Below are positions 3 through 47,060 of a DNA stretch of 64,000 nt, one piece after another. The stretch lies in NCBI GenBank assembly GCA_041753875.1, contig CM085492.1:12319563-12383562 (forward strand), given 5' to 3'. The DNA comes from Acanthopagrus schlegelii (lineage: Eukaryota). Made by a program: the position numbers and the translations under genes. The notes under the pieces were generated by a model, which did not search any database, was not told the origin of the DNA, and was given only the letters and a program-made list of their open reading frames with translations. The first letter of the stretch is position 1. The number at the start of each line of letters is the position of its first letter.

Positions 3-257
3 GGTGCAAAGTCAGAGTTCGCCAAGAAAATCAGGGAGGTGTCCACGCAGCTGCACGACGGTCTGGTGGAGCTCAACGGGATACGAGAGGAGCTGCAGTG
101 CACTGCACCAGAAAACAAGGACGAAGGCGATGATACAGCTGCTTTGGACAGTGACAAGAAAGAGAAAGAAGACAAATACGACAGCTCAGAGGAGGATGAA
201 ATCGACCGCATTAAAAAAGCCATCAAAAAGGACTATGAGAACCGAGAATACCTTTGA
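3..257 (+). CDS. 3' end (last coding exon, partial at window edge) of an apolipoprotein L-like gene. It encodes ...GAKSEFAKKIREVSTQLHDGLVELNGIREELQ followed by an acidic tail. Stop TGA at 255..257.
   Basis: Frame-3 ORF is open from the window edge. The peptide is paralogous to the C-terminal ApoL helix of the large gene (GAKTKFATKIRDVCKELQDGLLELNKVKTQLQ) and matches the conserved ApoL C-terminus (..EGAKSE.AEELKKVAQELEE..). Confidence 0.6.
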   Translation, partial: GAKSEFAKKIREVSTQLHDGLVELNGIREELQCTAPENKDEGDDTAALDSDKKEKEDKYDSSEEDEIDRIKKAIKKDYENREYL

Positions 258-14026: not shown

Positions 14027-14098
14027 GAAAAAGGAGGAATATTCAGCGGGATGTTCAAGAAGTCTCCGAAACCAGCAGAAGCTGCTCAGACTGATGAG
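14027..14098 (+). CDS. Exon 16: EKGGIFSGMFKKSPKPAEAAQTDE (B-type, canonical).
   Basis: Acceptor ctgtttcag, donor gtgatg, 72 nt. Confidence 0.8.
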
Positions 14099-14201
14099 GT
14101 GATGCAGCTGAAAACTATTTAAATAAAGACCGAATGGTCGACTCGTTAGTAAGATCCAGTGGCCTGATGCTCACATTGAACTGGTTCATTTTATCTTCTA
14201 G

Positions 14202-14264
14202 GACCAACAGGCTCTACAAGAGAATTTGTCAGGCAGTAATGATAATCTGTCTGAAAACACAAAG
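14202..14264 (+). CDS. Exon 17: DQQALQENLSGSNDNLSENTK (A-type).
   Basis: Acceptor tcttctag, donor gtgagc, 63 nt. Confidence 0.75.
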
Positions 14265-14375
14265 GTGAGCTCAGTACTTGGCTGTGAAGTGACTGGATTA
14301 TACCTGCAGCATCATCATCGTTATGATTATGTAACAGTCACTGATGGTGTGAATCAATCTCTCTGGTGTCACCAG

Positions 14376-14447
14376 GAGAAAGGAGGAATTTTCAGCGGGA
14401 TTCTCAGAAAGTCTCCCAAGCTTCCAGGAGAGGGAACGCCGGGGCAG
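14376..14447 (+). CDS. Exon 18: EKGGIFSGILRKSPKLPGEGTPGQ (B-type).
   Basis: Acceptor gtcaccag, donor gtagaa, 72 nt. Confidence 0.8.
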
Positions 14448-14992
14448 GTAGAAAATGTTTTTGCACACATTTTAGACACTCTAGTTATCACTGAAAATGT
14501 TTCAGACTGCCTTGTTTTTCACCCCATCAGAAAAAATGAATGCAAGTGTAAATAAAAGGAGGTTCAGGGTTTTGAACATATTAATGATGCAATGCAAACG
14601 CCTAATAAAACATGGAGTGTAGTTAAAATGTTTGGGTTAAGTGGGTTTCTTATGTACAACAGTCATGTTCCTACTTAAAGGATTCAACAAATTTGGGGAT
14701 CCTTTGTGGTTTTGGTGTTGTTGTCTGCTTGTTTGTGAGTTGTATTAAAGGACAACAAGAAAGGACATATTGATGGTGCAAAGTCTTACTGTCCATCTGT
14801 TGCAGTCCTCTGATGCTCTTTGTAATTGCCAGACTCTTCATAATTTTAAATACAGAATTGACATGAAAGAGAAAATGTAAGACAGTAAATAAAAAGATCA
14901 GAGAGCAAGAAAATTAAAACTGAACACTTGGTGGATTCTTGTTCATTGATCAAACAACTGAGGCGTCGTATTGTTCTTTGTTTTTGTTTCAG

Positions 14993-15055
14993 GATAAAGA
15001 GTCGCTGCAAACGGACCCATCAGACAGTAATGACACTAATGAGAACGGCACCAAA
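14993..15055 (+). CDS. Exon 19: DKESLQTDPSDSNDTNENGTK (divergent A-type).
   Basis: Acceptor tttgtttcag, donor gtaagg, 63 nt. Confidence 0.6.
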
Positions 15056-15649
15056 GTAAGGAGCCCAGATTGACTGGGTTGATGACAGCGGCTGAATCTT
15101 ATATTTACTTTCAACCCTCCCCTATATTTAGAAAAAACTGCAACACCCTCATTGTTAAAGACGCTTTGTTACATACATTCAAAATTATACTTAAACTGAC
15201 AACTTTTATACATATTGTTATGAAGTAAATGTTGATTGCACAATGTAATGGCTGTAGAAGATGATATTTTGTCTGCTACCTGGCACAAAATCTCATGAGA
15301 AAATGAAGAACGACTGATGATCCAGTCGTCCTTTTTAAGGTCAGTTTGATTATTCAGTTCACTCAGTCATGGAAACAAAGAGTTTGGAGTTCGCATTTGA
15401 CAAAGAAAAGGAAAGCAAACTGAACTAGTTTGACGTGAGGTGGAAAATGAAGCCCTGATAAAGAAACAGGATGTGCTCTGTGCCCTTCCATGAGCAAAAA
15501 GAAAAAAATACATGAACCTTCCCCTTTTCTGTCAAACTCACCACAAGGTGATTTTTCCAAATTATCCAAACTTTAATTATAAGTATGTAACTTCACATAC
15601 TTCCTTTCAGTGTCCAGAAAATGAATTCCTATTTGTCTTTATGTTTCAG

Positions 15650-15727
15650 GAGAAAGGAGGAGGAAGTGTTTTCAGTGGGATGTTCAAGAAATCTCCCAAA
15701 CTGTCTGAGGCCCCCCGACTGAAGGAG
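15650..15727 (+). CDS. Exon 20: EKGGGSVFSGMFKKSPKLSEAPRLKE (B-type).
   Basis: Acceptor atgtttcag, donor gtaaaa, 78 nt. Confidence 0.8.
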
Positions 15728-16139
15728 GTAAAACTTTATATACTTAATGTCTGCGATAGTATATGTTGTGCAGTAAGATCATCATATGTTTTTTGCATCT
15801 TGGTCAACATTTCAGAAGAAAAAAGTCTATTTTCAGCATTGTGATGATGCATTTTGCAGCTAAGGCGAGAGGTTTTTTTAAATTTTTTATTTTTCACAAT
15901 CAGTAAAGGAATGATTGATCACTCAGTGTATGAAGGAACAAATCAGATTCAAAATCTCCTAAGCCGGAGATACATGATTGTCACTGGACAGGAGGGTTAT
16001 TACAGTCCACTGCTGCATTCGAAGCCTTGAATGTAAAGAGCTGCGGACTCCTGCTTTAACCTGTTTTGTGTCAGTAATTGGATCCCTGCAGTCAATATCC
16101 ATGTCCACACAGGTTGAGTAACATTTTTGTTGTGTTTAG

Positions 16140-16199
16140 GAAGCAGAGACGTTACACAGTGAGCTCTCTGCCAGCACTGACAGCCTGACGGAGAACAAG
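16140..16199 (+). CDS. Exon 21: EAETLHSELSASTDSLTENK (A-type).
   Basis: Acceptor tgtgtttag, donor gtgagt, 60 nt. Confidence 0.75.
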
Positions 16200-16395
16200 G
16201 TGAGTCTTCATGATGGAAGTGACAGTGACGGATCCTCCCGCGCACCCACAGAAACTCCATGAGTCACCGTGACTCACATGATCAGCAACACTAATGTGGG
16301 AAAATATCTGCAGCTCTGTCGCTGGATAATCTTCAATCTGGAATTCAAGAAAATAATTTGTCAGTTTCATTTAACATGTTTTCTGCTCGGTGTAG

Positions 16396-16452
16396 GAAAA
16401 AGGCGGTTTGTTCAGCGGACTCCTCAGAAAGACTCCAAAAACAGCCGTAGAG
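16396..16452 (+). CDS. Exon 22: EKGGLFSGLLRKTPKTAVE (B-type).
   Basis: Acceptor ggtgtag, donor gtacac, 57 nt. Confidence 0.8.
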
Positions 16453-16781
16453 GTACACTGACTCAAATCCAAGTTTCTTTGCTTTCAGGCAGACACAGAA
16501 TGGAAACACCATCTAATCCAACCACCTTGATGGTTTCAATGTCAATGTCATTCCTACAACCTCATTTGTTGCTTGTACTCAATTGAATCACCCATCCTTT
16601 ATGCTATGTTTAGAAATAACAAAATAAATGGAGCACAGCTAAGTATGTGTGGCAGTGTGCTCAAATGCTGTAATGTAGAAGTTGAATTGAAATTTTTACA
16701 CATTCTTCTACAGATTTATTTTTTGTAACTCTTTCCTGTGGAGCTACTTTCCGTTTCTGACAGACTGAATTCTTGTTTCAG

Positions 16782-16850
16782 GAGAATCTTTCGGCACGGA
16801 AAGAACTTTCAGCCAGCAACGACAGTCTGTCCGAGACCGCCAACACCAAG
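16782..16850 (+). CDS. Exon 23: ENLSARKELSASNDSLSETANTK (A-type).
   Basis: Acceptor cttgtttcag, donor gtcagt, 69 nt. Confidence 0.75.
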
Positions 16851-17266
16851 GTCAGTTTTTGGTATAAAAGCACACTTTGTCACTTCATTTGAAAGCTGAT
16901 ACATTAAGAAATTGAGCAGGACATCTTGTTCCAGTTTCCATAAACAAATCTGATAATAGTGTTTTTGTGCAGATTTCCTGAAATGTAACCCCAGGTTGAA
17001 CAATGTGAACAATGGGGAAAAATGAAGCACTGAGAACAAAAGAGAGGCTGACATTTTTTCTTGGGAATTTTTTTGTTGTTTAGAACAGCAGGACTTACGA
17101 CTAGAGCTGAAACGTTTAGTCAACTGGAAATTATTCTGCAACTACTTTGATTAGTTGGTGTCATTTAAATGTTTAATTGTTAAATAATTTTTAAATTTCA
17201 AATGAAAAGTCAAAAAAATGTCAGGTGATGTATTTATGTTCTGTAAGCACTTCAACTGTGTTTCAG

Positions 17267-17338
17267 GAGAAAGGAGGTGCGTTCAGTGGAATATTCAAGA
17301 AGTCATCAAGACTTGCAGACGGTCATCACACTGAAGAC
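17267..17338 (+). CDS. Exon 24: EKGGAFSGIFKKSSRLADGHHTED (B-type).
   Basis: Acceptor gtgtttcag, donor gtaaga, 72 nt. Confidence 0.8.
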
Positions 17339-18163
17339 GTAAGAAGTGGCTTCTCTGTTTTTCTGTCTCCATCCAGTCATCCCTTTAGAAGTCTTGAACT
17401 TTAACTCTTTAACTTGTTCACTTTTCAAGCTGCATATTGCCAAAATGTCATCAGAGTACACTGAGTACACAAGTGACTTGAAGGCTGCTTGTTTGAATCC
17501 CAGAAACAACATGAGTAACTTATTTTAAGTTAACATAAGGTTTCTTCCAGGACATGGTTTGGCCTAGGTAGCAAGCCATCCAGATCTGGAAATGATGTAA
17601 TTCTTATCACCTGCACTTTAAATGCTTTAAAGGAGGACTCTGTCCATCAGTCCAACAAAGTTACAGCAGCAACATTTAAAAGAAAAGGATCAAAAATTAA
17701 TGCACCAGAATCAGAGATGCTGTCTTCTTAACCCCACGTTTTCTTCTTCCTTGTCTAAATCAAATGCATACATTATCTAAAGTCTAACTTAAACACTGAC
17801 GGTTTGATCAGAGATCCAGATGTTTTATACTGGTAGCATCTAATGAAGCCACGAGCTGCTAAGCTTAAGAGAGAAAAACAAGAGCTTTTCAGACCTCAGT
17901 AGCCCACTTCTCTCTAACTCCACACTGCCAGATTTTTTAAATTTTAAAACTTGTAGTCAAGACTGACTTAAGTGTCACTTGCTGTGATACTCCCGCAACA
18001 CCTCTAAAGAAACATAAATGTGTAATCTGGGGAGTTTCCCTTGAATCTGACATGGTAGCGGTAAAAGAGCAGTAAAAGTGCTTGGTTCCCCCACACTGTT
18101 ACTGATGACATGTCAATTGTCTGTAGTGTGTCAAAAGCTCTGATTGATTTAATCTTTTCTCAG

Positions 18164-18229
18164 GAAAAGCAATCAGAAGATGATGAGCTCTCAGGAAGCA
18201 CTGAAGCGCTGTCCGAGAACAACACAAAG
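18164..18229 (+). CDS. Exon 25: EKQSEDDELSGSTEALSENNTK (A-type).
   Basis: Acceptor tttctcag, donor gtgaat, 66 nt. Confidence 0.75.
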
Positions 18230-18310
18230 GTGAATTCTTTTTACACATCATTTAGAAGCCCGTCCTGACTAACTGTAAGAGGGAGCCCTCACTGTCTGAA
18301 TATGTTTCAG

Positions 18311-18382
18311 GAAAAAGGAGGAATATTTGCTGGAATGTTCAAGAAAGCCCCCAAACCTGCAGAAGCTGCTCAGCCTGAGGAG
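18311..18382 (+). CDS. Exon 26: EKGGIFAGMFKKAPKPAEAAQPEE (B-type).
   Basis: Acceptor atgtttcag, donor gtaaaa, 72 nt. Confidence 0.8.
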
Positions 18383-18794
18383 GTAAAAGTCTAATTTACT
18401 TCATTATTAGCCTGTCTATTAATTGTTTAAATAAAATACAGCTCTCGATCTTCATATATTAGTTTTCTGAAAATGTAAGTTGTAAAGCATCATTGCCTGT
18501 TTGTTAGCAAGGTATCTGAGAACGTTATGATGTTTTGAAAAGAGATTTCCTAACTTTTCTTCACATCTTCTCCATGTTCACATGAACTACTTCACTGAAA
18601 ATCTGGCAAATGTGTCGCATCATTGACTATGATAATGCAAAAATATGCACGGATGTTGATTTCATATTTTCACTAAGAAATATACTGTGAACCGATAGGT
18701 GCCACTCAAATTACTGCCACCTTTTTTATCAATGTAACGACTGAAATAATGTATTCCCCACGCAACATGTTTATAACCTGATGACTTTTAACAG

Positions 18795-18854
18795 GACGAG
18801 TCTGCTGACAAAGAGCTCTCAGCCAGCAATGAGAATTTATCAGAGGGCAAACAG
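18795..18854 (+). CDS. Exon 27: DESADKELSASNENLSEGKQ (A-type).
   Basis: Acceptor tttaacag, donor gtcagt, 60 nt. Confidence 0.75.
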
Positions 18855-18943
18855 GTCAGTGAGTTAAGTCCAAGATGGGTAATGAGTTTGAGTCTCTCAG
18901 CCCATCATGAAGCCTTTTTTCTGTCTTTTGTCTGTTTCATCAG

Positions 18944-19018
18944 GAGAAAGGTGGAGGTTTGTTCAGAGGCCTCAACAAAAAGCCTCCCAAAGCGTCTGGA
19001 GAAAAAACAGAGTCACCG
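18944..19018 (+). CDS. Exon 28: EKGGGLFRGLNKKPPKASGEKTESP (B-type).
   Basis: Acceptor tttcatcag, donor gtgagt, 75 nt. Confidence 0.8.
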
Positions 19019-19108
19019 GTGAGTTTGTGTTTTCTGGAAGTGCCATTAGTCTCGTAACTTCAACAAAATTTTCAACTGTTTCATTAAACATCTGTTTCTC
19101 TGTTTCAG

Positions 19109-19174
19109 GATGCAGAGGCTCGGAAAGAGTTGTCTGGCAGCAACGACGACCTGTCTGAGAATAACACCACTAAG
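19109..19174 (+). CDS. Exon 29: DAEARKELSGSNDDLSENNTTK (A-type).
   Basis: Acceptor ctgtttcag, donor gtgagc, 66 nt. Confidence 0.75.
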
Positions 19175-19255
19175 GTGAGCAGCATAATGTGACAAAAAAC
19201 ATGCAGATGAAATGTCTTCAGAGGGAACGTTCACTGACACCAGATTATTTTTCAG

Positions 19256-19324
19256 GAGAAAAACATTTTCAGCAACATGTTCAAGAAGCAACAGAAACCA
19301 GCAGAGGGCGCTGCAGCAGAGAAG
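19256..19324 (+). CDS. Exon 30: EKNIFSNMFKKQQKPAEGAAAEK (B-type).
   Basis: Acceptor tttttcag, donor gtgcca, 69 nt. Confidence 0.75.
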
Positions 19325-19417
19325 GTGCCATGATGTGATATAATTGACTGAATACATTCGGTTTATTGAGAATGGATGTTAATATTGTAATGAACTGTTT
19401 TCTGGCTTTGAATTCAG

Positions 19418-19483
19418 GAGCTGGAGGTGAACAGTGAAAGTCAGATATCTGGTAGCTGTGAGAATCTGTCTGATGCCCCAAAG
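19418..19483 (+). CDS. Exon 31: ELEVNSESQISGSCENLSDAPK (A-type).
   Basis: Acceptor gaattcag, donor gtactt, 66 nt. Confidence 0.7.
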
Positions 19484-19602
19484 GTACTTTTCGTTCTTTA
19501 AAAAGACTCTTTTCTCTGTTTTTCTGTCTTGGAGTCTCTGTAGTTTTATTAACATGTTTCTGAATATTTTCATTTGAGAGAAATAACTCAAATCTGTTTT
19601 AG

Positions 19603-19668
19603 GAGAAAAAAGGAGGCCTGGCTGGCATCTTCAAAAGATCAGGCAGCATCGACAACCTGTTTGATGAG
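19603..19668 (+). CDS. Exon 32: EKKGGLAGIFKRSGSIDNLFDE (B-type).
   Basis: Acceptor ctgttttag, donor gtcagt, 66 nt. Confidence 0.75.
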
Positions 19669-19852
19669 GTCAGTGTGAACCTAGTGAGCACAGTATCACA
19701 GTAGCAGCCCTACTACAATTAAGGCACCCATGAGCAGATACTTTTACTTCTGATTATAGTTACCTATAGCATTTTCAATGCATTAAAAGTTATTTTTCAT
19801 AACTTTTCAACAACTTAACTTGCATGCTTTTTTCTTTTTTTTTACTCACCAG

Positions 19853-19924
19853 GAGAAAGGCGGGCTGTTCAGTGGACTCCGTAAGAAAACACCCAAAGCG
19901 TCTGGAGATGAGGCGGCTGTAGAG
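19853..19924 (+). CDS. Exon 33: EKGGLFSGLRKKTPKASGDEAAVE (B-type; a second consecutive B exon).
   Basis: Acceptor tactcaccag, donor gtgagt, 72 nt. Confidence 0.8.
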
Positions 19925-20008
19925 GTGAGTGTGTGTGACCTCGGACACTGTTAGGATCACTCAGCATCATTGTCCATGTTTGTATACTGTGAAATTCTCT
20001 TTTGTCAG

Positions 20009-20074
20009 GACAAAGATGATCAGATGGAGCTGACGGCGAGTAATGACAGTCTGTCAGAAACCAACAACACTAAG
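20009..20074 (+). CDS. Exon 34: DKDDQMELTASNDSLSETNNTK (A-type).
   Basis: Acceptor ttttgtcag, donor gtactg, 66 nt. Confidence 0.75.
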
Positions 20075-20296
20075 GTACTGTGTTGAGATTTTTTTTTTTT
20101 TTAAGCATAAAAGGAACTTCTGCACTATAAACTTTATTCAAATTCACTCTGACATGCGTAAGTTTTCTCATGTACATTTAAAAACACATTCTTTTAATGC
20201 TGTTTATTTTTTATTGTACTTTTTAGCTATGACACATTACAAATAAACCTGGTGTAGTCTTCAACGCCACTTACTGTCTGTCTTGTCTGTTTTCAG

Positions 20297-20365
20297 GAGA
20301 AAAGTATTTTTAGTGGCATGTTCAAGAAGACTCAGAAACCAACAGAGGGGGCTACAACGGATGAG
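20297..20365 (+). CDS. Exon 35: EKSIFSGMFKKTQKPTEGATTDE (B-type).
   Basis: Acceptor ctgttttcag, donor gtgcag, 69 nt. Confidence 0.75.
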
Positions 20366-20439
20366 GTGCAGTAAATGACCCTTTAATGTTCAAAATGTAT
20401 TTCTGTTCGTCTCTTTTTGATCTTTGATTTTCTCTGCAG

Positions 20440-20511
20440 GAGTTAAACTGGGATGAGGATAATACGTTGTATGGCAGTGGTGAAAATCTCTTAGAAACAA
20501 CCACATCAAAG
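20440..20511 (+). CDS. Exon 36: ELNWDEDNTLYGSGENLLETTTSK (divergent A-type).
   Basis: Acceptor ttctctgcag, donor gtaaaa, 72 nt. Confidence 0.65.
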
Positions 20512-20605
20512 GTAAAAATGTGGTCCAACAAACACAATCTCAGTCTGTTTTTATTCTGTTCTGCAGCTGAATATCAACTGTTAACAAGTGTTTCATACAT
20601 TTCAG

Positions 20606-20677
20606 GAGAAGAGTGGTGGACTGGCAGGGATCTTCAGAAAGTCTCCAAAACCAGCTCCTCGATCGATCGCTACAGAG
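20606..20677 (+). CDS. Exon 37: EKSGGLAGIFRKSPKPAPRSIATE (B-type).
   Basis: Acceptor catttcag, donor gtgacc, 72 nt. Confidence 0.75.
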
Positions 20678-20825
20678 GTGACCAAGGTTTTTTTTTTTGT
20701 GCGGTTGTATGTATGATTATTCATGATTGAGATTTCTGCGGAAGCGCTCGTTTAAATTTTTGTGCTAACATTGTTTAAAAATAACCTTCAGCAAGTTCAC
20801 ACAGAGGTTCCGTCGTTTTTTCCAG

Positions 20826-20888
20826 GATCCCCTCACTGCCTCTAAGGAACTATCCGCCAGCTGCGACAGCCTCGTAGAAACTGCAGAG
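20826..20888 (+). CDS. Exon 38: DPLTASKELSASCDSLVETAE (A-type).
   Basis: Acceptor ttttttccag, donor gtgaga, 63 nt. Confidence 0.7.
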
Positions 20889-21231
20889 GTGAGAGATACT
20901 CAGAATCTGTGGATGCACTTGGATGCAACTTGTTTTGTTTATTTTAACCCATTGAGACAGAGGATGCCCATTTAAAAAAAAAACATTATAAAACCTTAGG
21001 CATTGTTTGAAAACACCTCCTGAAACCTGAGGCATAACTGAAAGATGTGACAGAACTGTCAGTGTTCACTAAAACCTTTATTTCTCAGCTTCTGGAGAGG
21101 AAAGAACATGAAATAAAGAAACATTTGAATTACTGTGAGAGTTGTGTCCAACAACCATGCCAAAAAGTTTCAGTGATAGTAATTTCTGACAAAATTCTTG
21201 TTTTGTTCCGTCTATTAATTTTATTTTAAAG

Positions 21232-21294
21232 GATGACCTTCCTCGATTATCGGCCAGCACAGATAATCTTGTAGAAGCTTCAAGTGCCACGAAG
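21232..21294 (+). CDS. Exon 39: DDLPRLSASTDNLVEASSATK (A-type; a second consecutive A exon).
   Basis: Acceptor ttattttaaag, donor gtgagt, 63 nt. Confidence 0.7.
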
Positions 21295-21382
21295 GTGAGT
21301 TAATTATTCTGCTTGACTGTATTAGTTTATTTTCCCATTTAAAATACTTGAATTAATGCTCCTTGTTTTATTTTTTGAAAAG

Positions 21383-21442
21383 GAGAAAAAAGGAGGGTTC
21401 GCTGGAATCTTTAGAAGAACGCCTAAAACAATTGAACATCAG
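21383..21442 (+). CDS. Exon 40: EKKGGFAGIFRRTPKTIEHQ (last B-type).
   Basis: Acceptor tttgaaaag, donor gtatgt, 60 nt. Confidence 0.75.
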
Positions 21443-21826: not shown

Positions 21827-21939
21827 GTGAGTTGTCGTTTATTCACTGTAACATCCAGAGACACGATTATTGCAAACTGTGTTTTTTTTTTTCTTCTCTT
21901 CTGGTTGTTAAATCCCTCTTCTCTTTTTTGTTTTCTCAG

Positions 21940-22002
21940 GTTACTTCATTCCGAGTCAAGAAAACGCTTCCCAAAGTACCCAAACTTAATCTGACATCTC
22001 AG
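21940..22002 (+). CDS. Exon 42: VTSFRVKKTLPKVPKLNLTSQ.
   Basis: Acceptor gttttctcag, donor gtatct, 63 nt. Confidence 0.6.
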
Positions 22003-22322
22003 GTATCTACTGATTCCTTCTAGTTATTCCTGAGTTACTCACTTTCTCACTGCTGCTGCATCACTGCAGAGAAACTTGGTCCTGATATCAAGTCCCATGT
22101 CACCTTTTTAAAAAAATATTTGATCGCTTGAAAGGCTTGGAAAAAAAAAAAAGCCTTGAATAAAGTTTACGAACAGGTTGTTTTATGTTGCTGCTTCTTA
22201 TTAAGGTGCATAAGTTATGAGGATCAGTTGAAAAGGTGATTAGAAATCATGCTGGGTCATTTTTACAGGCACCCACATTCTCCACAAATATCTCTTTTTT
22301 ATTTATATTTCCTTACTTTATT

Positions 22323-22418
22323 TACTGATTATTATTATTGTTGTTATTATTATTATTATTATTATTGTTGTTATTGTTATTGTTATTATTATTATTGTTG
22401 TTGTTGTTGTTGTTATAT
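22323..22418. repeat. Compound (ATT)n/(GTT)n microsatellite, ~95 bp, in the intron just upstream of exon 43.
   Basis: ttattattattgttgttattattattatt...gttgttgttgttgtt. Confidence 0.9.
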
Positions 22419-22460
22419 TTTGCTGAGTTAATGAGATTGAGATTATTTTTTAATCCACAG

Positions 22461-22523
22461 AGTTCAGATAAAATGACTATTATTGAGGAGGCTGTTGAGC
22501 TGCAGGAGCTGAACCCAGCACAG
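22461..22523 (+). CDS. Exon 43: SSDKMTIIEEAVELQELNPAQ.
   Basis: Acceptor taatccacag, donor gtaaac, 63 nt. Confidence 0.6.
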
Positions 22524-22545
22524 GTAAACACAATGATGTTATTAA

Positions 22546-22567
22546 GTGTGTGTGTGTGTGTGTGTGG
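22546..22567. repeat. (GT)n microsatellite.
   Basis: gtgtgtgtgtgtgtgtgtgtgg. Confidence 0.85.
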
Positions 22568-23039: not shown

Positions 23040-23114
23040 GAGAGCTCAGTGGAGGTTCAGCCTGTGGAGATGGCATCTTTCCCCACTGAAGAAAACCCAC
23101 TGGAAGCTGACGAG
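23040..23114 (+). CDS. Exon 44: ESSVEVQPVEMASFPTEENPLEADE.
   Basis: Acceptor gttttctag, donor gtgtgt, 75 nt. This is the last of 44 consecutive exons whose lengths are divisible by 3. Confidence 0.6.
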
Positions 23115-23292: not shown

Positions 23293-23332
23293 GAAAATGA
23301 TGAGTTGATGGAGTGGTGGAACACTGTCAAAG
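23293..23332 (+). CDS. Exon 45: ENDELMEWWNTVK plus one carried nucleotide (40 nt, ends in phase 1).
   Basis: Acceptor ctgttttcag, donor gtttgt. Frame is restored across exons 45-47 (40+52+415 = 507 nt). Confidence 0.55.
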
Positions 23333-23468
23333 GTTTGTGTGTTTGTCTTCAACTTTAATTGGTTCAGACTAGTTAGTTTATTCACACACACGCATACATA
23401 CACACTAACACATACAAGAAATCAGCACATTTATTACTAATTCTGTCACAACTTCTGCCGGTTGCCAG

Positions 23469-23520
23469 GTTGGGCAGAGTGGAACGAGACATCCAATTTC
23501 CAGGAGGATGATGAGGAAAT
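23469..23520 (+). CDS. Exon 46: (G)WAEWNETSNFQEDDEE(M), 52 nt.
   Basis: Acceptor gttgccag, donor gtaagc. Confidence 0.55.
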
Positions 23521-24047
23521 GTAAGCATAGTTTTATTTTCTTAAACACCCTTTCATTCTGATTTACACAGAAGATGTTATTTTAGCATTTTGAGGAATAT
23601 TTTTTATGCTTACTGTCTTAAAAAGCATTGAAATCAGTTTCTTCCAAAAACGGCTTTAGAAGGCATTTAAGTCTTACATCATATTCACAAAAAAGTTATT
23701 ATATTTTGATGTTTTCTCTTGCTTTCTGTAGGCAGTAATGTTGTGAAATATTATTGTATTTAAAATGCGGGAGGTTTAGAGACGTAACATCAGTACACTA
23801 AAATCAGGATTGTTGCAACAGGAGGCTGTTGCTGTAAATCCTTACAGTTGGAGTCAAATGTCATAATTTCGACTTGTGCAGATGCCCTCTTTTTATTTAG
23901 TTAGTTATGTAGTATTTGTGTTTGTGCTCAAATGATGAATGTAAATATTTTCAAGACCCCATGTTTTACTGTGTGCACATGTACAACCTACCAGCATCTA
24001 ACTTTAAACCTAACAGACACACCATCTCTTCACATCCTTCTCTGTAG

Positions 24048-24462
24048 GGCGATGGAGCAGGCAGCTGATCGTGTCTACATGGCCGCCCGTCTGTTCGTGC
24101 GTCTCTTCAACAATCGGGGGGCGTCCCTGCAGAGTCGCATCCTGGAGCTTGTGGCTCTGGCCGACGCTGCAGATGAGTTCCACAAGAAAACGGTGAAGGC
24201 TGCTGTGGGTGGAGGGGTGGCCAGCGTCGCTGGCAGCGTGGCGACAATCACGGGCCTCATTCTGGCACCTTTCACTTTCGGTGCGTCGATTATCGTCACG
24301 GCGGTGGGGATCAGCGTGGCGACAGCGGGCAGCATCACCTCAGCGACGGCCAACATCACCGATACGGTTCACTCCAGCATGGACCGTAAGAAGCTGGAGA
24401 AGATGATCCAGGGCTACCAGGAGGAGATCAAAGACATCAGGGAGTGTTTGGAGTTTGTGCAG
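24048..24462 (+). CDS. Exon 47: core ApoL domain, AMEQAADRVYMAARLFVRLFNNRGASLQSRILELVALADAADEFHKKTVKAAVGGGVASVAGSVATITGLILAPFTFGASIIVTAVGISVATAGSITSATANITDTVHSSMDRKKLEKMIQGYQEEIKDIRECLEFVQ.
   Basis: Acceptor tctctgtag, donor gtgagg. Matches the conserved APOL block (LAD...VHKG..IA.VVG.S...SG.L.L.GL.LAPFT.GGSL...) including the hydrophobic helix-hairpin. Confidence 0.85.
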
Positions 24463-24614
24463 GTGAGGAAATGTAGATAAAGTCAAATGAGTCACAATTC
24501 TCATTACGTTATCTTACATTATACGTCAAGTGCAGACTAGACCACAACTAGAGATAAGATACCATCTTGCGTCACAGTTCTTACAGCCCCTTTCTCTCTC
24601 TGTGCGTCCTGTAG

Positions 24615-26222
24615 GCGGGTATGGACACCCTGCAGGAGTGGGACTTTGAAAAGTATTCTGAGAGTGCTACCAAGAAGGCGCTGAACCACAACCTCAAGCA
24701 CGTGATGAAGGAGGGCGGTCGCGCCGGAAAAGCCCTGATGATCAACACCGATAAGCTCATCAGCACTGTGCAGATTTTGGGCGCTGCAGGCGGCGCCGCC
24801 AAAGCTGCCCAGGCCATCAGCGTCACCACAGGGGTCATGTCGGCGCTCTTCCTCGCTCTGGACGTTTTCTTCCTCGCCAAGGACTCCCATGAGCTCCGCA
24901 AAGGCGCCAAGACAAAGTTCGCCACCAAGATCAGGGACGTATGTAAAGAACTTCAGGATGGCCTCCTGGAGCTGAACAAGGTGAAGACGCAGCTGCAGAA
25001 GACCATGGACGGCATCGAGGTGGAGGAGTACGAGGAAATTGAGGAGGTGGAGGTGGAAGTTGAGGACGAATTGGAGTCGGATCCGAAGAAGCTGGCTGAG
25101 CTGGAGCAGGAGCTGGACCTCCTGGAGGAGAAACTGGACAAGAAGGCAGAGGAGCAGCAGAAGAGTAAAGGGATGGAGAAGGAAAATTTGAAAAGTAAGA
25201 AACAGGAGGAGAAGAGCATGAAGGAGAAAGAAGAAGTGGGAAATGATGCTAAGAAAGAAGGAAAGAAGGAAAGCAAAAAGGACAAAGTTGAGGGAGAAAA
25301 CAAGCTTGAGATGAAAAAATTAGATAAGATCTCTGATGAGGAAGTGGAGCAGAAAAATGAGACTGTCAAAGAAGCCAAAGAGGAGGTTTTAAAAGAACAG
25401 TCTCAGAAAGGAAAGAAGAAAGACAAAGAGACTGAAAACCGAATTACGGCTGGAAAAGAAAAATATGAAAGCAAGAGAGACACGGCAAAAGAAGAAAATG
25501 TTCCAAATAAAAAGGCAGGTGAGAAGGAAAAAGAACCCGAGGAAATTAAGATCAGATCAGGCCATTCAAAACAACAGGAACAGGTTGAAAAAGTACATTC
25601 TGGAAGGAGTAAGAGCAGCAGAGAGGTAGACAGAGGGATAACCGAAGAAAAAGAGGTGAGAAGTGGGAGTAAGGGGAGGCGCAGGAGCGAGAAAGATCAA
25701 CCCCATAAGAGTGAAAGGGGGAGCGTGCACGAAACGAAAGAGACAGACAAGGACAGAGGCAGCCGGCGAGAGGAGGAGAGAGGAGCGAGGAACTGGAGGG
25801 CTGAGGTGGCTAAAAGTAGAGACGGCAAGGAAGGAAGAGAATCAAAGGGGGAGGATCACGCGAGGAAAGATTCGCACCGGAGTCACGGAACGTCGTCGGT
25901 GAGGGAGCGTCAGGAGAGAGATCGGGGGCACAGCAGAAAGGGATCTGACTCGGAGAGGAGTCACCACAGGAGAGGATCGGACGAGCACAGGGAGAGAGGA
26001 GACGAGAAGCGAGGGAGCAGGATCGAGAGCGCGAGGAGGCAGTTCGAGCGAGCCGGGGGAGAGAAGGAGGAGGAGGAGAGGGGGAAGAGGAGAGAGGATG
26101 GGGGGAGTCAGAGGGGGGAGAGAGAGAGGAGAGGGAGTGACAGAGACAGAGAGCACCGACACAGCCACCGAGGATCTCGATCGCGATCCAGCGTGCTGCT
26201 GGAGGACGGACTTTATATTTAG
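24615..26222 (+). CDS. Exon 48 (last): ApoL C-terminal region AGMDTLQEWDFEKY...GVMSALFLALDVFFLAKDSHELRKGAKTKFATKIRDVCKELQDGLLELNKVKTQLQ, then a ~430-aa tail that is E/K-rich and then R/S/D/E/G/H-rich. Stop TAG at 26220..26222.
   Basis: Acceptor cgtcctgtag. A single 1.6-kb ORF (24621..26222 in the ORF track). Matches the APOL C-terminus (LDVV.LV.ESKHL.EGAKSE.AEELKKVAQELEEKL). Confidence 0.85.
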   Translation, partial: AGMDTLQEWDFEKYSESATKKALNHNLKHVMKEGGRAGKALMINTDKLISTVQILGAAGGAAKAAQAISVTTGVMSALFLALDVFFLAKDSHELRKGAKTKFATKIRDVCKELQDGLLELNKVKTQLQKTMDGIEVEEYEEIEEVEVEVEDELESDPKKLAELEQELDLLEEKLDKKAEEQQKSKGMEKENLKSKKQEEKSMKEKEEVGNDAKKEGKKESKKDKVEGENKLEMKKLDKISDEEVEQKNETVKEAKEEVLKEQSQKGKKKDKETENRITAGKEKYESKRDTAKEENVPNKKAGEKEKEPEEIKIRSGHSKQQEQVEKVHSGRSKSSREVDRGITEEKEVRSGSKGRRRSEKDQPHKSERGSVHETKETDKDRGSRREEERGARNWRAEVAKSRDGKEGRESKGEDHARKDSHRSHGTSSVRERQERDRGHSRKGSDSERSHHRRGSDEHRERGDEKRGSRIESARRQFERAGGEKEEEERGKRREDGGSQRGERERRGSDRDREHRHSHRGSRSRSSVLLEDGLYI

Positions 26223-27575
26223 TTTTAAAGACGTCACAATAATCCTTTTTCAAAGATTAGGTTTAGATTCTTTTAAAGGGACAGTACACCCCAAAATCTG
26301 TAGTGCGATTTATCCATGTACATAGTTTTTTGGAGATGTCAACAAAAGAGATATTTGCCTTCTCTGAATATATTGGAACTAGACGGCGCTCGTCTTGTGG
26401 TGCTCCAAGCGCCAAAACACACATTTTATGAAATCAACAGGAAGTCTCTTTCCTGAAATCATGACTCAAGGACCTGGTTTTTGGCAGTTTGATATAAAAA
26501 ACATTTACTATTCAAGACTTCCTCGACTGAACTGGAACTTCCTGTGTGTGTGGAAATGTCACGTTATCATGGCCTCGTTCATTAAATTCATCATATTGTG
26601 AAGTTTTTGTTTGTTGAAAACTCAGATAAGACTTGGAGTGCCAATAAGGTGCTTTTATCAGTTTCTGCACCAGTGTTTCTTTGGATACGACCACTAGGAG
26701 TTTTATCACTTCCTTCCTTTTTCTTTTTTTAAAAAGTGCTTTTTTGTTTGTTAGTTTGTTTTGGTGCCCCAGGATCAGATTTCTTCACAGCAAAGCACAT
26801 ATGTCACTTAAAGCAACAGAACAGCTGATTGTTGAGTCACGCCGACAGGTCGTCAAATACTGACTCTTTGGACCTGAGCTGCTATCCCACGGCGTCAGTA
26901 ATTGCCCAGATTTTTTTGCTTTAATCCGTAGACAGGCTGCTTGTTAACGATTTCAGATTTCAGATTTCAGATCACCTTTAAACAAATATCTAAAACCTTT
27001 TCATGTGTTTCTAAAACATGTATTTCTGAACGGTGTCTGTTACTTTATATATTTCTGGTGTTTCAGGGTAAAACTACTTGTTTTTTGCAGTAGGATTGTT
27101 GAAGTCTGTATTGTGCCTTTTTATATGAACACACTGTGTGTATATTGTGTTGTCTATTGGACCAGTGTTGTTATGTCACAAAAACACCAGTATGTGAAGA
27201 GTTTTTCATGCAGTCGTTGTATCTCAGGAAGTACAGAAACGTGCTCTGGGGAGATGTACCAGAGTGGTACAATGATAATCACCATTCCTGGAAATTAATC
27301 ATGAGTTTTTGGTCTTTACGATCATCTGTTACTATTTCCACTCAGTGCACTTTAGTCAGGCGTTGCCTTCCTCACGTCTGCGCTCTCAAGTTTTACATCA
27401 GAAATGACTACTTCCTGATGTTTCTGCAATGTTGTGCAATGGTACAATTTTTCTGTTTTCATCACCGGTGTCTTCTTTTATACTTTATATGTTTGTCATT
27501 TTATATGGGTAAATATTTTTTATGGTGCTGGTTTCTTACTGAACAAATAAATTACTACTACTGAACGGTATGATT
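26223..27575 (+). other. Probable 3' UTR of the large ApoL-like gene, with an AATAAA at 27546..27551.
   Basis: AT-rich sequence with no coding signal. One canonical poly(A) signal lies ~1.3 kb after the stop codon. Confidence 0.35.
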
Positions 27576-33545: not shown

Positions 33546-34299
33546 GTTCGTTTTCTTTATCTTTCATCCTCTCAGTGTAGATATCACCATGACCTTTGTA
33601 ATCTAAATGGAGAGCTAAAACATTTGTTTAAAAACTACTTTAAAATCAGCAAACATATTCTTACTTCTCGTCCAGAATTTGTCTTAGGACCCAGAAACTG
33701 CTGGGAACTACATTTCCCACAATGCAAACCAACAGTATATTTCTTCAGTTAACAGCTTTTGCCTGGCTGAGTTGTACTCCTCATCTTGTGCTAAAGATTT
33801 AATATGTAACATTTCTGCATTAAAGTGTCGAAGAAATGACGATGCCCTCATGATGTATTCATTCGAGCTAATGGCACATTTCATTTGGTCACCAGTCACT
33901 TTAACTGTCTGTAGAGAGCCAGAGAGCGAGAGAGGAAGTCGGCAAAGTAAACTAAATATAATGTGATGAAAACTTTAAAACAGAGTCAGTTTCGTCAGCG
34001 GTGGTGGTTGTTTGATCGGGAAGTCAGCATCTTTTCTATGATTCCACACTGCTTAAGTCCTTTGTTTTGTTCTACTAGCCGCTGATATCACATACTGTGT
34101 GTTTAATGGAAACTTGACCGTAAAATTGGTGTCATTACCCTTTATCCAATTACCCACAGAAAAGTTTTTCTGATAACTCAGTCAAACTCTTTTTTTGTTT
34201 TTTGGAACAGCCACTCCCTCACAAAGTCAGTTTTCACAGATCTCTGCATGACAGTCTATTCTCGTGACTTGGTGTTTAAACGACTGTGTGTTTTACCAG

Positions 34300-34506
34300 G
34301 TGAACATCACTCGCAACGGCTGCGGCGTCTCTAAACTGTGCGTGGAGACGCCAAATGACTGTGACCCTGCTGCCAACAGCACCTGTCTGTTCGCGTCTTT
34401 GACCGCCTCCACCCCGATGGCCCCCAACGGCACTGTCCTGTCCGTCGAGCTCAGGGGAGAGTCCATGGGATACATTGCACTGGGACTGACTCAGAACGCC
34501 TCAGAG
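34300..34506 (+). CDS. Exon 3: VNITRNGCGVSKLCVETPNDCDPAANSTCLFASLTASTPMAPNGTVLSVELRGESMGYIALGLTQNASE, the start of the DOMON domain.
   Basis: Acceptor gttttaccag, donor gtaacg, 207 nt in phase 0. Shows the DOMON hallmarks (R.GCG..K.C...P..C.P.....C.F.S... ; Y.ALG.S). Confidence 0.7.
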
Positions 34507-46908: not shown

Positions 46909-47060
46909 TTGCAAAATCAGAAAAATCACTCTTCATCAGGGGAAGAAAAAAAAAAAAACAAAGGGGAAAAAAAAAAATCTACTCCACCAAAAAAAGAAAA
47001 AAGGAAGAAGAAAAAAAGAAAAAAAAAAAGAAAAAAGGGGAAAAAGGGCAAACAGACTGA
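46909..47060. repeat. Long homopurine (A/G-only) tract of ~150 bp in hnrnpc intron 1.
   Basis: gggaagaaaaaaaaaaaaacaaaggggaaaaaaaaaaatctactccaccaaaaaaagaaaaaaggaagaag..., almost exclusively purines on the + strand. Confidence 0.8.

What the first reader, a model, noticed from the sequence alone, without database searches (positions are those of the whole stretch)
24048..26222. ApoL domain fused to an atypical ~430-aa charged tail: E/K-rich coiled-coil-like segment, then an R/S/D/E/G/H-rich RS-like segment
After the conserved ApoL C-terminal helix (..GAKTKFATKIRDVCKELQDGLLELNKVKTQLQ) the ORF continues for ~430 residues. First comes EEYEEIEEVEVEVEDELESD...KKEGKKESKKDKVEGENK. Then comes an RS/RD/RE-type low-complexity region: RGSDSERSHHRRGSDEHRERGDEKRGSRIESARRQ...RERRGSDRDREHRHSHRGSRSRSS. 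Known ApoL proteins end shortly after the C-terminal helix. RS-like tails are characteristic of nuclear speckle and splicing proteins.
Basis: partly seen in the sequence, partly recalled or inferred. Interest (0 to 1): 0.6.

Follow-up and report, generated by a model that had tools for sequence, protein, structure and literature searches.

The report
Fish apold1a gene's long charged tail
This is the end of the fish gene databases call apold1a, a membrane-inserting ApoL protein whose roughly 400-residue charged, disordered tail is real, translated and shared by many fish, but is not a splicing-type RS domain and is undescribed in the papers searched.

Summary
Exon 24048..24462 and terminal exon 24615..26222 encode an ApoL domain (Pfam E=5.7e-31) followed in the same exon by 406 further codons with no stop; shuffles expect about 19 stops.

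The tail is coding. Orthologues keep it to the same C-terminus (..DGLxI). A spliced wolffish transcript carries it unspliced in one exon. dN/dS is 0.14-0.34 in the tail against 0.05 in the ApoL part.

The gene is the teleost orthologue of the predicted "apold1a" (si:rp71-1g18.13). A tail-only profile found just 23 representatives among 1.84 billion. Every full-length hit has ApoL directly upstream and every named one is a euteleost. Eel and bonefish have different long tails, cyprinids short ones, amniote APOLD1 none.

The tail fails RS-domain criteria: at most 20% RS/SR dipeptide residues per 50 residues, and S+R at most 0.45 per 60. Only residues 295-331 look helical with a heptad pattern; the rest is predicted disordered.

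Best reading, inferred: a disordered tether carrying conserved short motifs, namely [KR][KR]xS sites including an invariant serine, a WRAE island and a hydrophobic C-terminus.

This is an ordinary member of an annotated but unstudied gene family, of modest interest.

The parts
14042..21442 (+). Array of upstream mini-exons of the same gene. Each encodes a copy of the motif EKGG(I/L)F(S/A)G(M/I/L)(F/L)(K/R)K(S/T/A)PK, the N-terminal disordered repeat region. Exact exon boundaries were not resolved.
   Evidence: tblastn with orthologue N-termini. A motif scan found 7 copies, all on the + strand, at 14042, 14391, 15671, 16411, 18326, 20621 and 21398.
21937..22550 (+). Two further upstream coding exons, about 21937-22008 (RRRRTIKKKxRVVSFR-type basic stretch) and about 22458-22550.
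   Evidence: tblastn matches to Cottoperca P0001 and Pelmatolapia P0002.
23040..23114 (+). Coding exon ESSVEVQPVEMASFPTEENPLEADE.
   Evidence: Read from the sequence with AG/GT boundaries. Matches orthologues.
23294..23333 (+). Coding exon ENDELMEWWNTVK(G).
   Evidence: Collinear with wolffish transcript L001.
23469..23521 (+). Coding exon (G)WAEWNETSNFQEDDEE(M). It ends with AT, which joins G at 24048 to make an ATG codon.
24048..24462 (+). Coding exon for the first half of the ApoL domain, including the hydrophobic hairpin (residues 49-100).
   Evidence: Pfam ApoL. Hydropathy. 92-93% identical to orthologues. This is the part that aligns to human APOLD1, at 31% over 121 aa.
24463..24614 (+). 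Intron with GT..AG boundaries. The donor scores 11.4. The acceptor's upstream tract is 79% pyrimidine.
   Evidence: Absent from transcript L001.
24615..25001 (+). Start of the terminal exon: second half of the ApoL domain, with hydrophobic segment 202-227 and C-terminal helix 239-269.
   Evidence: dN/dS is 0.05 against Cottoperca.
25002..25193 (+). Tail zone 1 (residues 268-331): the acidic run TMDGIEVEEYEEIEEVEVEVEDELESD, then a helix at 295-331 with a leucine heptad (L298/301/305/308/312).
   Evidence: Residues 268-316 are conserved in all aligned teleost apold1a proteins; apold1b keeps the stretch as far as ..DPKKLAxLEE, where it ends. AlphaFold2 helix 295-331 with pLDDT 72-75 at 301-320. 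Heptad spacing. dN/dS is 0.14.
25194..25544 (+). Tail zone 2 (residues 332-448): K/E-rich polyampholyte, fast-evolving, with one moderately conserved island at 392-414 (AKEEVLKEQSQKGKKKDKETENR).
   Evidence: Composition of the E/K zone as computed for residues 316-448. Conservation. dN/dS is 0.26 for that E/K zone. Predicted coil, pLDDT below 50. No single-alpha-helix pattern.
25545..26219 (+). Tail zone 3 (residues 449-673): R/S/E/D/G/H-rich segment with five [KR][KR]xS sites and conserved islands.
   Evidence: Composition and motifs. Conservation. dN/dS is 0.34 overall and 0.18 in the last 60 aa.
25764..25808 (+). Conserved island RREEERGARNWRAEV (residues 522-536).
   Evidence: Alignments A1 and A2. 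Present in salmonid, Aplochiton and percomorph tails.
25998..26060 (+). Conserved island GDEKRGSRIESARRQFERAGG (residues 600-620). It contains Ser606 (26016-26018), the only invariant serine of the tail alignment, in a K-R-G-S context.
   Evidence: Alignment A2: invariant columns are S289 and I356 of the tail query. Conservation profile.
26172..26222 (+). C-terminal motif HRGSRSRSSVLLEDGLYI and stop codon TAG (26220-26222).
   Evidence: Of 79 retrieved proteins with long tails, 53 end in [GA]LxI. Salmonids end in QFYI and Albula in PLSI. D, G and L are at least 90% conserved and the final I is invariant.
26223..27076 (+). 3' UTR, minimum extent.
   Evidence: Patches at 26604-26696 and 27032-27076 match the 3' UTR of wolffish transcript L001. 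Poly(A) signals lie at 26581, 27546 and 27690.

Best explanation
The finding is the last two coding exons of the teleost gene that databases call apold1a (si:rp71-1g18.13). The gene spans at least 14.0-27.1 kb of the window on the + strand.

Shown:
- The protein has a membrane-inserting ApoL domain flanked by two long low-complexity regions.
- The C-terminal region is translated from the same exon as the second half of the ApoL domain.

Predicted: the tail beyond residue 331 is intrinsically disordered.

Inferred from composition, conservation pattern and topology by analogy:
- The tail is a cytoplasm-facing, flexible, highly charged tether, not a folded or RS domain.
- A short conserved acidic stretch and a leucine-heptad helix (295-331) sit next to the membrane domain.
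- A fast-evolving K/E spacer and an R/S/E/D/G/H segment then present a few conserved short linear motifs.
- These motifs are several [KR][KR]xS sites that suit basophilic (PKA/AGC-type) kinases, including the invariant Ser606, a WRAE-containing island, and a hydrophobic carboxy-terminus (..DGL-x-I).
- That terminus could dock onto a scaffold such as a class II PDZ domain.
- Phosphorylation of the many serines would switch the arginine-rich part from net positive to a balanced mixed-charge state.

The tail most likely arose inside this gene lineage by extension of the reading frame and expansion of purine-rich sequence, not by capture of a foreign domain.
For: Gene identity:
- The best hits over 100% of the query are teleost apold1a or 'uncharacterized' proteins, 58-71% identical.
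- Exon structure matches Cottoperca and Anarhichas.
- A tandem ApoL paralogue lies upstream in the window, eel and Garra.

The tail is coding:
- The open frame contrasts with shuffles.
- dN/dS is 0.14-0.34, below 1.
- The C-terminus and islands are conserved.
- Intron-less Logan contig L001 maps to the A. minor genome with four introns removed. Its last block, covering the tail and about 1 kb of UTR, is contiguous.
- Salmonid contig L004 (3654 nt) likewise carries a 748-aa ORF that includes the tail.

Disorder and helix: AlphaFold2 with 30 sequences gives only helix 295-331 at pLDDT above 70. Residues 332-673 are coil with pLDDT below 50. Mean hydropathy is -2.0.

Motifs: five [KR][KR]xS sites and the invariant serine and terminal Ile.

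Charge switch: no 60-aa window meets the mixed-charge criterion as is. If serines count as negative, 47 arginine-rich windows spanning 466-665 meet it (criteria).

Origin within the lineage:
- The tail-only profile finds 23 proteins among 1.84 billion. All full-length hits have ApoL immediately upstream.
- The tail shares the exon with the ApoL domain.
- Eel has a different long tail built of tandem units in the same position.

Cytoplasmic side by analogy: ApoLs without a signal peptide sit on the cytoplasmic leaflet (PMC8557400).
Against: - No experiment or expression data for this species were available. Kinase sites, PDZ-type docking and topology are inferred from sequence only.
- The hydrophobic segments (49-100 and 202-227) could give an odd number of membrane spans. 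That would put the tail on the luminal or extracellular side.
- Most of the tail evolves about ten times faster than the ApoL domain, with many indels. A 70-residue block is simply missing in wolffish.
- Cyprinids and apold1b do without the tail, so much of it may be dispensable.
- dN/dS on protein-guided alignments of low-complexity sequence is biased downward.
- Two strong donor-like sites lie inside the tail (25519 and 25656), so truncated isoforms cannot be excluded.
Confidence: 0.55

Rival explanations
1. The tail is largely non-functional. On this view it is a tolerated by-product of purine-rich repeat expansion in the terminal exon, kept open only because T-poor sequence rarely makes stop codons and because truncation is not selected for.
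For: - The DNA is 76% purine and only 10% T, with GA/GAG microsatellite-like arrays.
- The protein evolves rapidly, with many indels.
- Tail sequence turns over completely between eel or bonefish and euteleosts.
- Cyprinid apold1a and apold1b are short or lack the tail.
- The tail is predicted to be disordered.
Against: - Even with this base composition, shuffles give 18.7 stops and are never open. The other + frames carry 9 and 28 stops.
- dN/dS is 0.18-0.34, not about 1.
- Discrete islands, an invariant serine and the extreme C-terminus are kept from salmonids and smelt to percomorphs.
Confidence: 0.25
2. The R/S/D/E-rich end acts like an RS or arginine-rich mixed-charge domain. It would drive condensation, either in nuclear speckles after cleavage or as a membrane-tethered condensate.
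For: - The last 225 aa are 21% R and 14% S, with 26 RD/RE-type dipeptides.
- If serines are counted as phosphorylated, 47 arginine-rich 60-aa windows meet the mixed-charge criterion of Greig et al..
- That paper argues that RS domains behave as phosphorylation-regulated mixed-charge domains (section list).
Against: - The tail fails the RS criteria: best S+R is 0.45 against 0.6, and at most 20% of residues lie in RS/SR dipeptides.
- It fails the mixed-charge criterion unphosphorylated: best fraction of charged residues is 0.65 against 0.7.
- There is no RRM or other RNA-binding domain.
- The protein carries hydrophobic membrane segments.
- No cleavage site or nuclear localisation was tested.
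Confidence: 0.08
3. The tail is a gene-model artefact. Part of 24615..26222 would really be intron or 3' UTR, and the true protein would end soon after the ApoL helix, using one of the internal donor-like sites.
For: - Donor-like CAG|GTGAGA at 25519 scores 10.9 and GAG|GTGAGA at 25656 scores 9.9, against 11.4 for the real donor.
- Several database models in other fish are truncated inside the tail. An example is Anguilla P0077, although its genome keeps the frame open for 503 codons.
Against: - Spliced transcripts from a wolffish relative and a salmonid contain the whole tail unspliced.
- There is no acceptor-like site inside the ORF downstream of the donors. The best pyrimidine fraction there is 0.53, against 0.79-0.84 at the real acceptors.
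- Coding-type conservation runs to the shared stop codon.
Confidence: 0.05
4. The E/K-rich part is a rigid single alpha-helix or a long coiled-coil spacer, as the reader's 'coiled-coil-like' label suggests.
For: - The zone has high E and K content (K 28%, E 25%) with few G or P residues (7%).
- A genuine helix with a leucine heptad lies at 295-331.
Against: - The i/i+3 and i/i+4 opposite-charge pairing is not enriched over shuffles (z=-0.8).
- AlphaFold2 predicts coil with pLDDT below 50 beyond residue 331.
- There is no hydrophobic heptad beyond about residue 312.
Confidence: 0.07

Closest known systems
Predicted teleost apold1a proteins (si:rp71-1g18.13), for example Cottoperca gobio LOC115022310 (P0001), Pelmatolapia mariae apold1a (P0002), Cynoglossus semilaevis apold1a (P0008) and Osmerus eperlanus apold1a (P0129)
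   Same: - The match is collinear over the whole 673 aa at 58-71% identity, and about 90% in the ApoL domain.
- The exon structure is the same.
- The three-zone tail, its conserved islands and the ..DGLxI C-terminus are the same.
- The repeated N-terminal FKKxPKP motif exons are the same.
   Different: - Only ordinary orthologue-level divergence and indels in the low-complexity zones.
- These entries are computer predictions with no described function.
- Several carry misleading names driven by composition, such as 'titin homolog', 'futsch', 'myb-like protein X' and 'neurofilament medium polypeptide'.
Amniote APOLD1 / VERGE (apolipoprotein L domain-containing 1)
   Same: - It has the Pfam ApoL domain.
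- The helix-plus-hydrophobic-hairpin half aligns at 31% over 121 aa to human and 34% over 112 aa to alligator.
- The databases use it as the namesake.
- It is reported at endothelial junctions and Weibel-Palade bodies (PMC9973481).
   Different: - Amniote proteins are 161-352 aa with neither the N-terminal repeat region nor the tail.
- The second half of the fish domain does not align significantly by BLASTP.
- One-to-one orthology and endothelial expression of the fish gene were not tested.
- A published family history traces APOLD1 only to amniotes (PMC8557400).
RS domains of SR proteins and arginine-rich mixed-charge domains of nuclear-speckle proteins (Greig et al., 10.1101/771592)
   Same: It is arginine-rich, serine-containing, disordered and highly charged. 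It meets the mixed-charge criterion if serines are counted as phosphorylated.
   Different: - It fails the RS and unphosphorylated mixed-charge thresholds.
- There are no RS repeats beyond SRSRS.
- There is no RRM.
- It is attached to a membrane-insertion domain.
Teleost apold1b and cyprinid apold1a
   Same: They share the ApoL domain, the N-terminal repeat region, and the acidic stretch through ..SDPKKLAxLE(E). Cyprinid apold1a also keeps the helix through LDQK.
   Different: - apold1b ends at ..DPKKLAxLEE, about 30 aa after the domain.
- Cyprinid apold1a ends 45-80 aa after the domain.
- In Garra an AT-rich UTR follows the stop, with no remnant of the long tail.
Membrane or channel proteins with long charged disordered extensions, such as the glutamic-acid-rich GARP region of the rod CNGB1 channel subunit. 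This is recalled from general knowledge and was not tested here.
   Same: In concept, a membrane-embedded module carries a long, highly charged, disordered arm thought to act as a tether or spacer.
   Different: There is no sequence relationship. This is an analogy for how the tail might work, not a membership claim.

Membership tests
ApoL family (Pfam PF05461) | Significant match to the ApoL profile above the curated threshold | tested here: met
   E=5.7e-31, 108.5 bits against a cut-off of 25.9. Residues 12-259 match profile positions 49-297 of 298.
ApoL family (Pfam PF05461) | Hydrophobic helix hairpin with membrane-insertion potential (Pays 2024, PMC11726835) | tested here: met
   A hydrophobic stretch at 49-100 (maximum KD 2.13) is rich in G/S/T/V/I. 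A second segment lies at 202-227.
Teleost apold1a orthologue group (database annotation) | Best database matches are apold1a proteins and are collinear over the full length | tested here: met
   The top hits cover 100% of the query at 58-71% identity. Many are named apold1a or si:rp71-1g18.13.
Teleost apold1a orthologue group (database annotation) | Same exon layout, with the tail in the same exon as the second half of the ApoL domain | tested here: met
   Seen in Cottoperca L002, Anarhichas L003 and eel L005.
Teleost apold1a orthologue group (database annotation) | Conserved neighbourhood | tested here: met
   A tandem ApoL paralogue lies immediately upstream in the window (3..254), in eel and in Garra. 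A DOMON-type ORF lies downstream, and the Chanos model is fused to a DOMON domain.
Amniote APOLD1 / VERGE | Sequence similarity across the whole protein, supporting orthology | tested here: inconclusive
   31-34% identity over only 112-121 aa, and the second half does not align. No phylogeny or reciprocal test against APOL1-6 was run.
Amniote APOLD1 / VERGE | Compact protein of about 250-280 aa that ends soon after the C-terminal helix | tested here: not met
   The amniote hits are 161-352 aa. The window protein has 406 aa after the helix and a long N-terminal region.
Amniote APOLD1 / VERGE | Endothelial immediate-early expression, with junction and Weibel-Palade body localisation | not testable with these tools
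   Known only from the literature on human and mouse (PMC9973481).
SR-protein RS domain | At least 50-60 aa dominated by R and S with consecutive RS/SR repeats. The thresholds are more than 40% RS content (Manley and Krainer nomenclature, from general knowledge) or S+R of at least 0.6 in 60 aa (Greig et al.). | tested here: not met
   At most 10 of 50 residues lie in RS/SR dipeptides. The best S+R fraction is 0.45. The only repeat run is SRSRS (criterion).
SR-protein RS domain | Accompanying RNA-recognition motif | tested here: not met
   Pfam finds only ApoL and a sub-threshold CD20 match.
Arginine-rich mixed-charge domain (Greig et al.) | A 60-aa window with a fraction of charged residues of at least 0.7 and a positive-to-negative ratio of 1 +/- 0.3 | tested here: inconclusive
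   No window qualifies as is; the best fraction is 0.65. If every Ser is counted as negative, 51 windows qualify, 47 of them arginine-rich and spanning 466-665. Phosphorylation status is unknown.
Single alpha-helix (E/K/R) domain | Enriched i/i+3 and i/i+4 opposite-charge pairing and a predicted long helix | tested here: not met
   z=-0.8 against shuffles for residues 316-448. AlphaFold2 predicts coil beyond residue 331.
Coiled coil / leucine zipper | A helix with an a/d hydrophobic heptad over several heptads | tested here: inconclusive
   Only about 2.5 heptads are present (L298, 301, 305, 308, 312), within predicted helix 295-331. Oligomerisation was not tested.

The most novel reading that the evidence does not exclude
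The tail would be a lineage-born coding extension. An ancestral fish ApoL gene would have read through into purine-rich 3' sequence, and the new disordered arm later acquired selected motifs. Its arginine- and serine-rich end would work as a phosphorylation-switched mixed-charge module that clusters the membrane-bound ApoL protein into a membrane-tethered condensate or scaffold. Such a mode of regulation is unknown for any ApoL protein.
Probability: 0.1. Interest if true: 0.6.

Novelty: new member of a known kind. Interest (0 to 1): 0.3.

Why it matters
ApoL proteins are studied almost entirely in mammals (APOL1 kidney disease and trypanosome lysis; APOLD1 in endothelial integrity and bleeding). 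The published family history starts APOLD1 at amniotes (PMC8557400).

Fish carry a much larger ApoL-domain protein, with a repeated N-terminal motif array and a roughly 400-residue charged tail. The tail has been kept for a long evolutionary time. No paper in the searchable library mentions apold1a or apold1b.

The practical value is modest:
1. The gene model here is sound, and the tail should not be trimmed as UTR or intron.
2. Names such as 'titin homolog', 'futsch' or 'neurofilament' on orthologues are artefacts of composition.
3. Zebrafish lacks the long tail, so medaka or another euteleost is the right model for testing it.
4. The conserved Ser606 context and the ..DGLxI end are concrete handles for experiments.

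Tried and rejected
- **RS-domain reading.** Rejected on three quantitative criteria.
- **Single-alpha-helix or long coiled-coil reading of the E/K zone.** Rejected.
- **Tail as a captured domain from another protein family.** Pfam finds nothing in the tail. PDB sequences give no hit at E<=1. An exhaustive profile search finds the tail only behind ApoL domains.
- **Tail built from long tandem DNA repeats.** Only short GA-type arrays were found.
- **'Exitron' explanation for the 70-residue block missing in wolffish.** Rejected. The A. minor genome itself lacks the block, and the transcript is contiguous there.
- **Zebrafish genomic comparison.** The protein could not be looked up, so Garra was used instead.
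- **Literature search for apold1a or apold1b.** No papers found. The APOLD1-plus-zebrafish search gave nothing on the fish protein's architecture.
- **Fold search.** Not run, because the model's mean pLDDT of 45 would make matches meaningless.
- **Full reconstruction of the N-terminal mini-exons.** Not attempted beyond locating them.
Full report
**1. What is in the sequence**

The window is AT-rich vertebrate DNA (about 38% G+C). The block 24001-26000 stands out at 52% G+C and is strongly purine-rich on the + strand.

Reading the sequence gives the following structure:
- An exon at 24048..24462, with AG at 24046-47 and GT at 24463-64.
- A 152-nt intron.
- A terminal exon at 24615..26222 ending in TAG.

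The first base of exon 24048 completes an ATG begun in a small exon at 23469..23521.

The spliced 673-aa product matches Pfam ApoL over residues 12-259 (E=5.7e-31, 108.5 bits against a cut-off of 25.9). The frame then continues for 406 codons (25002..26219).

This open frame is not a side-effect of T-poor sequence:
- Shuffles of the tail give 18.7 stops on average, and none of 2000 is open.
- The other two + frames have 9 and 28 stops.

The quoted peptides and compositions are correct. The tail is 406 aa, not about 430.

**2. The tail is coding, not intron or UTR**

Orthologues keep the same tail to the same end. Cottoperca gobio (71% identity over the whole query), cichlids, wolffish, tongue sole, snakehead, pipefishes and others all finish ..DGLxI.

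Transcript evidence comes from two contigs:
- A 3056-nt contig assembled from sequencing run SRR28473478 encodes an intron-less 668-aa orthologue.
- Against the Anarhichas minor genome it aligns in five blocks with four introns removed. The last block, covering the second ApoL half, the entire tail and about 1 kb of 3' UTR, is contiguous.
- It is collinear with the window's exons.
- A salmonid contig (L004, 3654 nt) likewise carries a 748-aa ORF that includes the tail.

Codon-level comparison with Cottoperca gives the following dN/dS values:

| Region | dN/dS |
|---|---|
| ApoL part | 0.05 |
| Acidic/helix zone | 0.14 |
| E/K zone | 0.26 |
| R/S-rich zone | 0.34 |
| Last 60 residues | 0.18 |

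These values are approximate, because alignment of low-complexity sequence is uncertain.

Two strong donor-like motifs lie inside the tail, at 25519 and 25656. No acceptor-like site follows within the ORF. Minor truncated isoforms cannot be excluded without RNA-seq from this species.

**3. What gene it is**

The best matches are proteins named apold1a, si:rp71-1g18.13 or 'uncharacterized' in many teleosts.

The gene is much larger than the finding:
- tblastn with orthologue N-termini finds many small + strand exons between about 13.6 and 23.5 kb.
- Seven of them encode the motif EKGG(I/L)F(S/A)G(M/I/L)(F/L)(K/R)K(S/T/A)PK.

The very start of the window (3..254) is the end of a second ApoL-domain gene with only a short acidic tail. 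The same tandem arrangement is seen in eel and Garra.

Against real amniote APOLD1 proteins (161-352 aa, none with a tail), only the first half of the domain aligns. Identity is 31% over 121 aa to human and 34% over 112 aa to alligator.

The database name therefore signals family resemblance. Strict orthology was not tested here. A published reconstruction traces APOLD1 only to amniotes (PMC8557400).

**4. Anatomy and distribution of the tail**

Conservation across 28 long-tailed sequences (the window protein plus 27 orthologues) divides the tail into three zones.

1. Residues 268-331. An acidic run is followed by a helix. Residues 268-316 are conserved in all aligned teleost apold1a proteins, and apold1b keeps the stretch as far as ..DPKKLAxLEE, where it ends.
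   - AlphaFold2 (30 sequences, mean pLDDT 45) gives its only confident tail element here, helix 295-331 with pLDDT 72-75.
   - Leucines 298, 301, 305, 308 and 312 follow a 3-4-3-4 heptad.
2. Residues 332-448. This is a K/E-rich, fast-evolving spacer.
   - It is predicted to be coil.
   - It shows no single-alpha-helix charge pattern (z=-0.8).
3. Residues 449-673. This zone is R/S/E/D/G/H-rich, with conserved islands:
   - RREEERGxRxWRAE (522-536).
   - EKRGSRIESARRxFERAGGE (600-620), holding the only invariant serine, Ser606.
   - RRGSDR (641-650).
   - The C-terminus ..DGLxI, with an invariant final Ile.

A profile of the tail alone, searched against 1.84 billion representative proteins, found 23 hits.
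- Every full-length hit has an ApoL domain immediately upstream; three hits are short fragments.
- All named hits are euteleosts, from salmonids, smelt and burbot to percomorphs.

Other lineages differ:
- Bonefish and eel carry long charged tails of unrelated sequence in the same exon.
- The eel genome keeps 503 codons open although its database model truncates them.
- Cyprinids stop 45-80 residues after the domain, and an AT-rich UTR follows.
- apold1b stops about 30 residues after the domain.

A long, compositionally similar extension is thus old and recurrent in this gene. The specific euteleost tail is confined to it.

**5.

*RS-like.*
- At most 20% of residues in any 50-aa window lie in RS/SR dipeptides.
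- The only alternating run is SRSRS.
- RD/RE-type dipeptides outnumber RS/SR by 26 to 15.
- Under the explicit criteria of Greig et al., no 60-aa window reaches S+R of 0.6 (best 0.45).
- No window qualifies as a mixed-charge domain (best fraction of charged residues 0.65 against 0.7).
- If every serine were counted as phosphorylated, 47 arginine-rich windows across 466-665 would qualify.

*Other points.*
- There is no RRM.
- Hydrophobic segments at 49-100 and 202-227 mark a membrane protein.
- The speckle or splicing analogy is therefore not supported as stated. A phosphorylation-dependent mixed-charge behaviour remains a low-probability possibility.

**6. How it most likely works**

Shown: the tail is translated, conserved in islands, and tied exclusively to this ApoL domain. 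Predicted: it is disordered beyond residue 331.

Inferred:
- The tail faces the cytoplasm. The protein has no signal peptide, and signal-peptide-less ApoLs sit on the cytoplasmic leaflet.
- It acts as a flexible charged tether that displays short motifs.
- These motifs are [KR][KR]xS sites suited to basophilic kinases (five in the window protein), a Trp-containing island, and a hydrophobic C-terminus of the phi-x-phi type that could engage a PDZ-like scaffold.
- Of 79 retrieved long-tailed proteins, 53 end in [GA]LxI. Twelve salmonid entries end in QFYI.
- Human APOLD1 is reported at endothelial junctions and Weibel-Palade bodies (PMC9973481). This makes scaffold docking plausible, but nothing here tests it.

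The main rival is that most of the tail is tolerated low-complexity expansion with little function.

**7. Verdict**

The feature is real and the gene model is sound. It is an ordinary orthologue of an annotated but unstudied teleost gene family, and its tail is not an RS domain. Interest is modest.

Noticed in passing
window 14042-21442 (+): Seven mini-exons each encode EKGG(I/L)F(S/A)G(M/I/L)(F/L)(K/R)K(S/T/A)PK, right after a splice acceptor. Together they form a modular N-terminal repeat array of the same gene. The basic-aromatic motif looks like a membrane-binding peptide. Orthologues have 300-940 aa of this region and many predicted isoforms.
   Followed up: partly
window 3-257 (+): This is the 3' end of a second ApoL-domain gene (GAKSEFAKKIREVSTQLHDGLVELNGIREELQ..), with only a ~50-aa acidic tail and a stop at 255-257. 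It is a tandem paralogue cut by the window edge. The same upstream ApoL neighbour is called in eel (L005 1-2026) and Garra (L006 1-1939).
   Followed up: partly
window 34264-34728 (+): An ORF with DOMON-like sequence (..LSVELRGESMGYIALGLTQNAS..) lies downstream of the gene. The Chanos chanos 'apold1a' model (P0055) is fused to a DOMON domain (PF03351). This suggests conserved synteny and a mis-merged database model.
   Followed up: no
window 25519 and 25656 (+): Two near-consensus splice-donor motifs (CAG|GTGAGA and GAG|GTGAGA) lie inside the tail ORF, with no matching acceptor in the ORF. They could feed rare truncated isoforms or mislead gene predictors.
   Followed up: partly
L005 20585-22096 (Anguilla anguilla): The eel genome keeps the terminal-exon frame open for 503 codons. 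The tail is built of tandem units (GKSGKGEGDERWKDA(K/R)RE..). The deposited protein model (P0077) leaves the tail after about 70 residues, so the database model is probably truncated.
   Followed up: partly
orthologues P0039, P0032, P0015, P0011 (cyprinodontiform fishes): Their E/K zone contains one to six tandem copies of a ~33-aa unit (EPKKSKESVLDMFKIKKEKKEEKS..). Its (D/M)IFKIKK core resembles the N-terminal FKKxPKP motif.
   Followed up: no
database names of orthologues: Orthologues are variously named 'titin homolog', 'microtubule-associated futsch', 'myb-like protein X', 'neurofilament medium polypeptide', 'eIF3 subunit A-like', 'myosin-1' and 'Apolipoprotein L3/L6'. These look like composition-driven mis-annotations.
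   Followed up: partly
window 46001-48000: This is a second stretch with a strong A-over-T skew (AT skew 0.228) in the composition profile. It was not examined.
   Followed up: no
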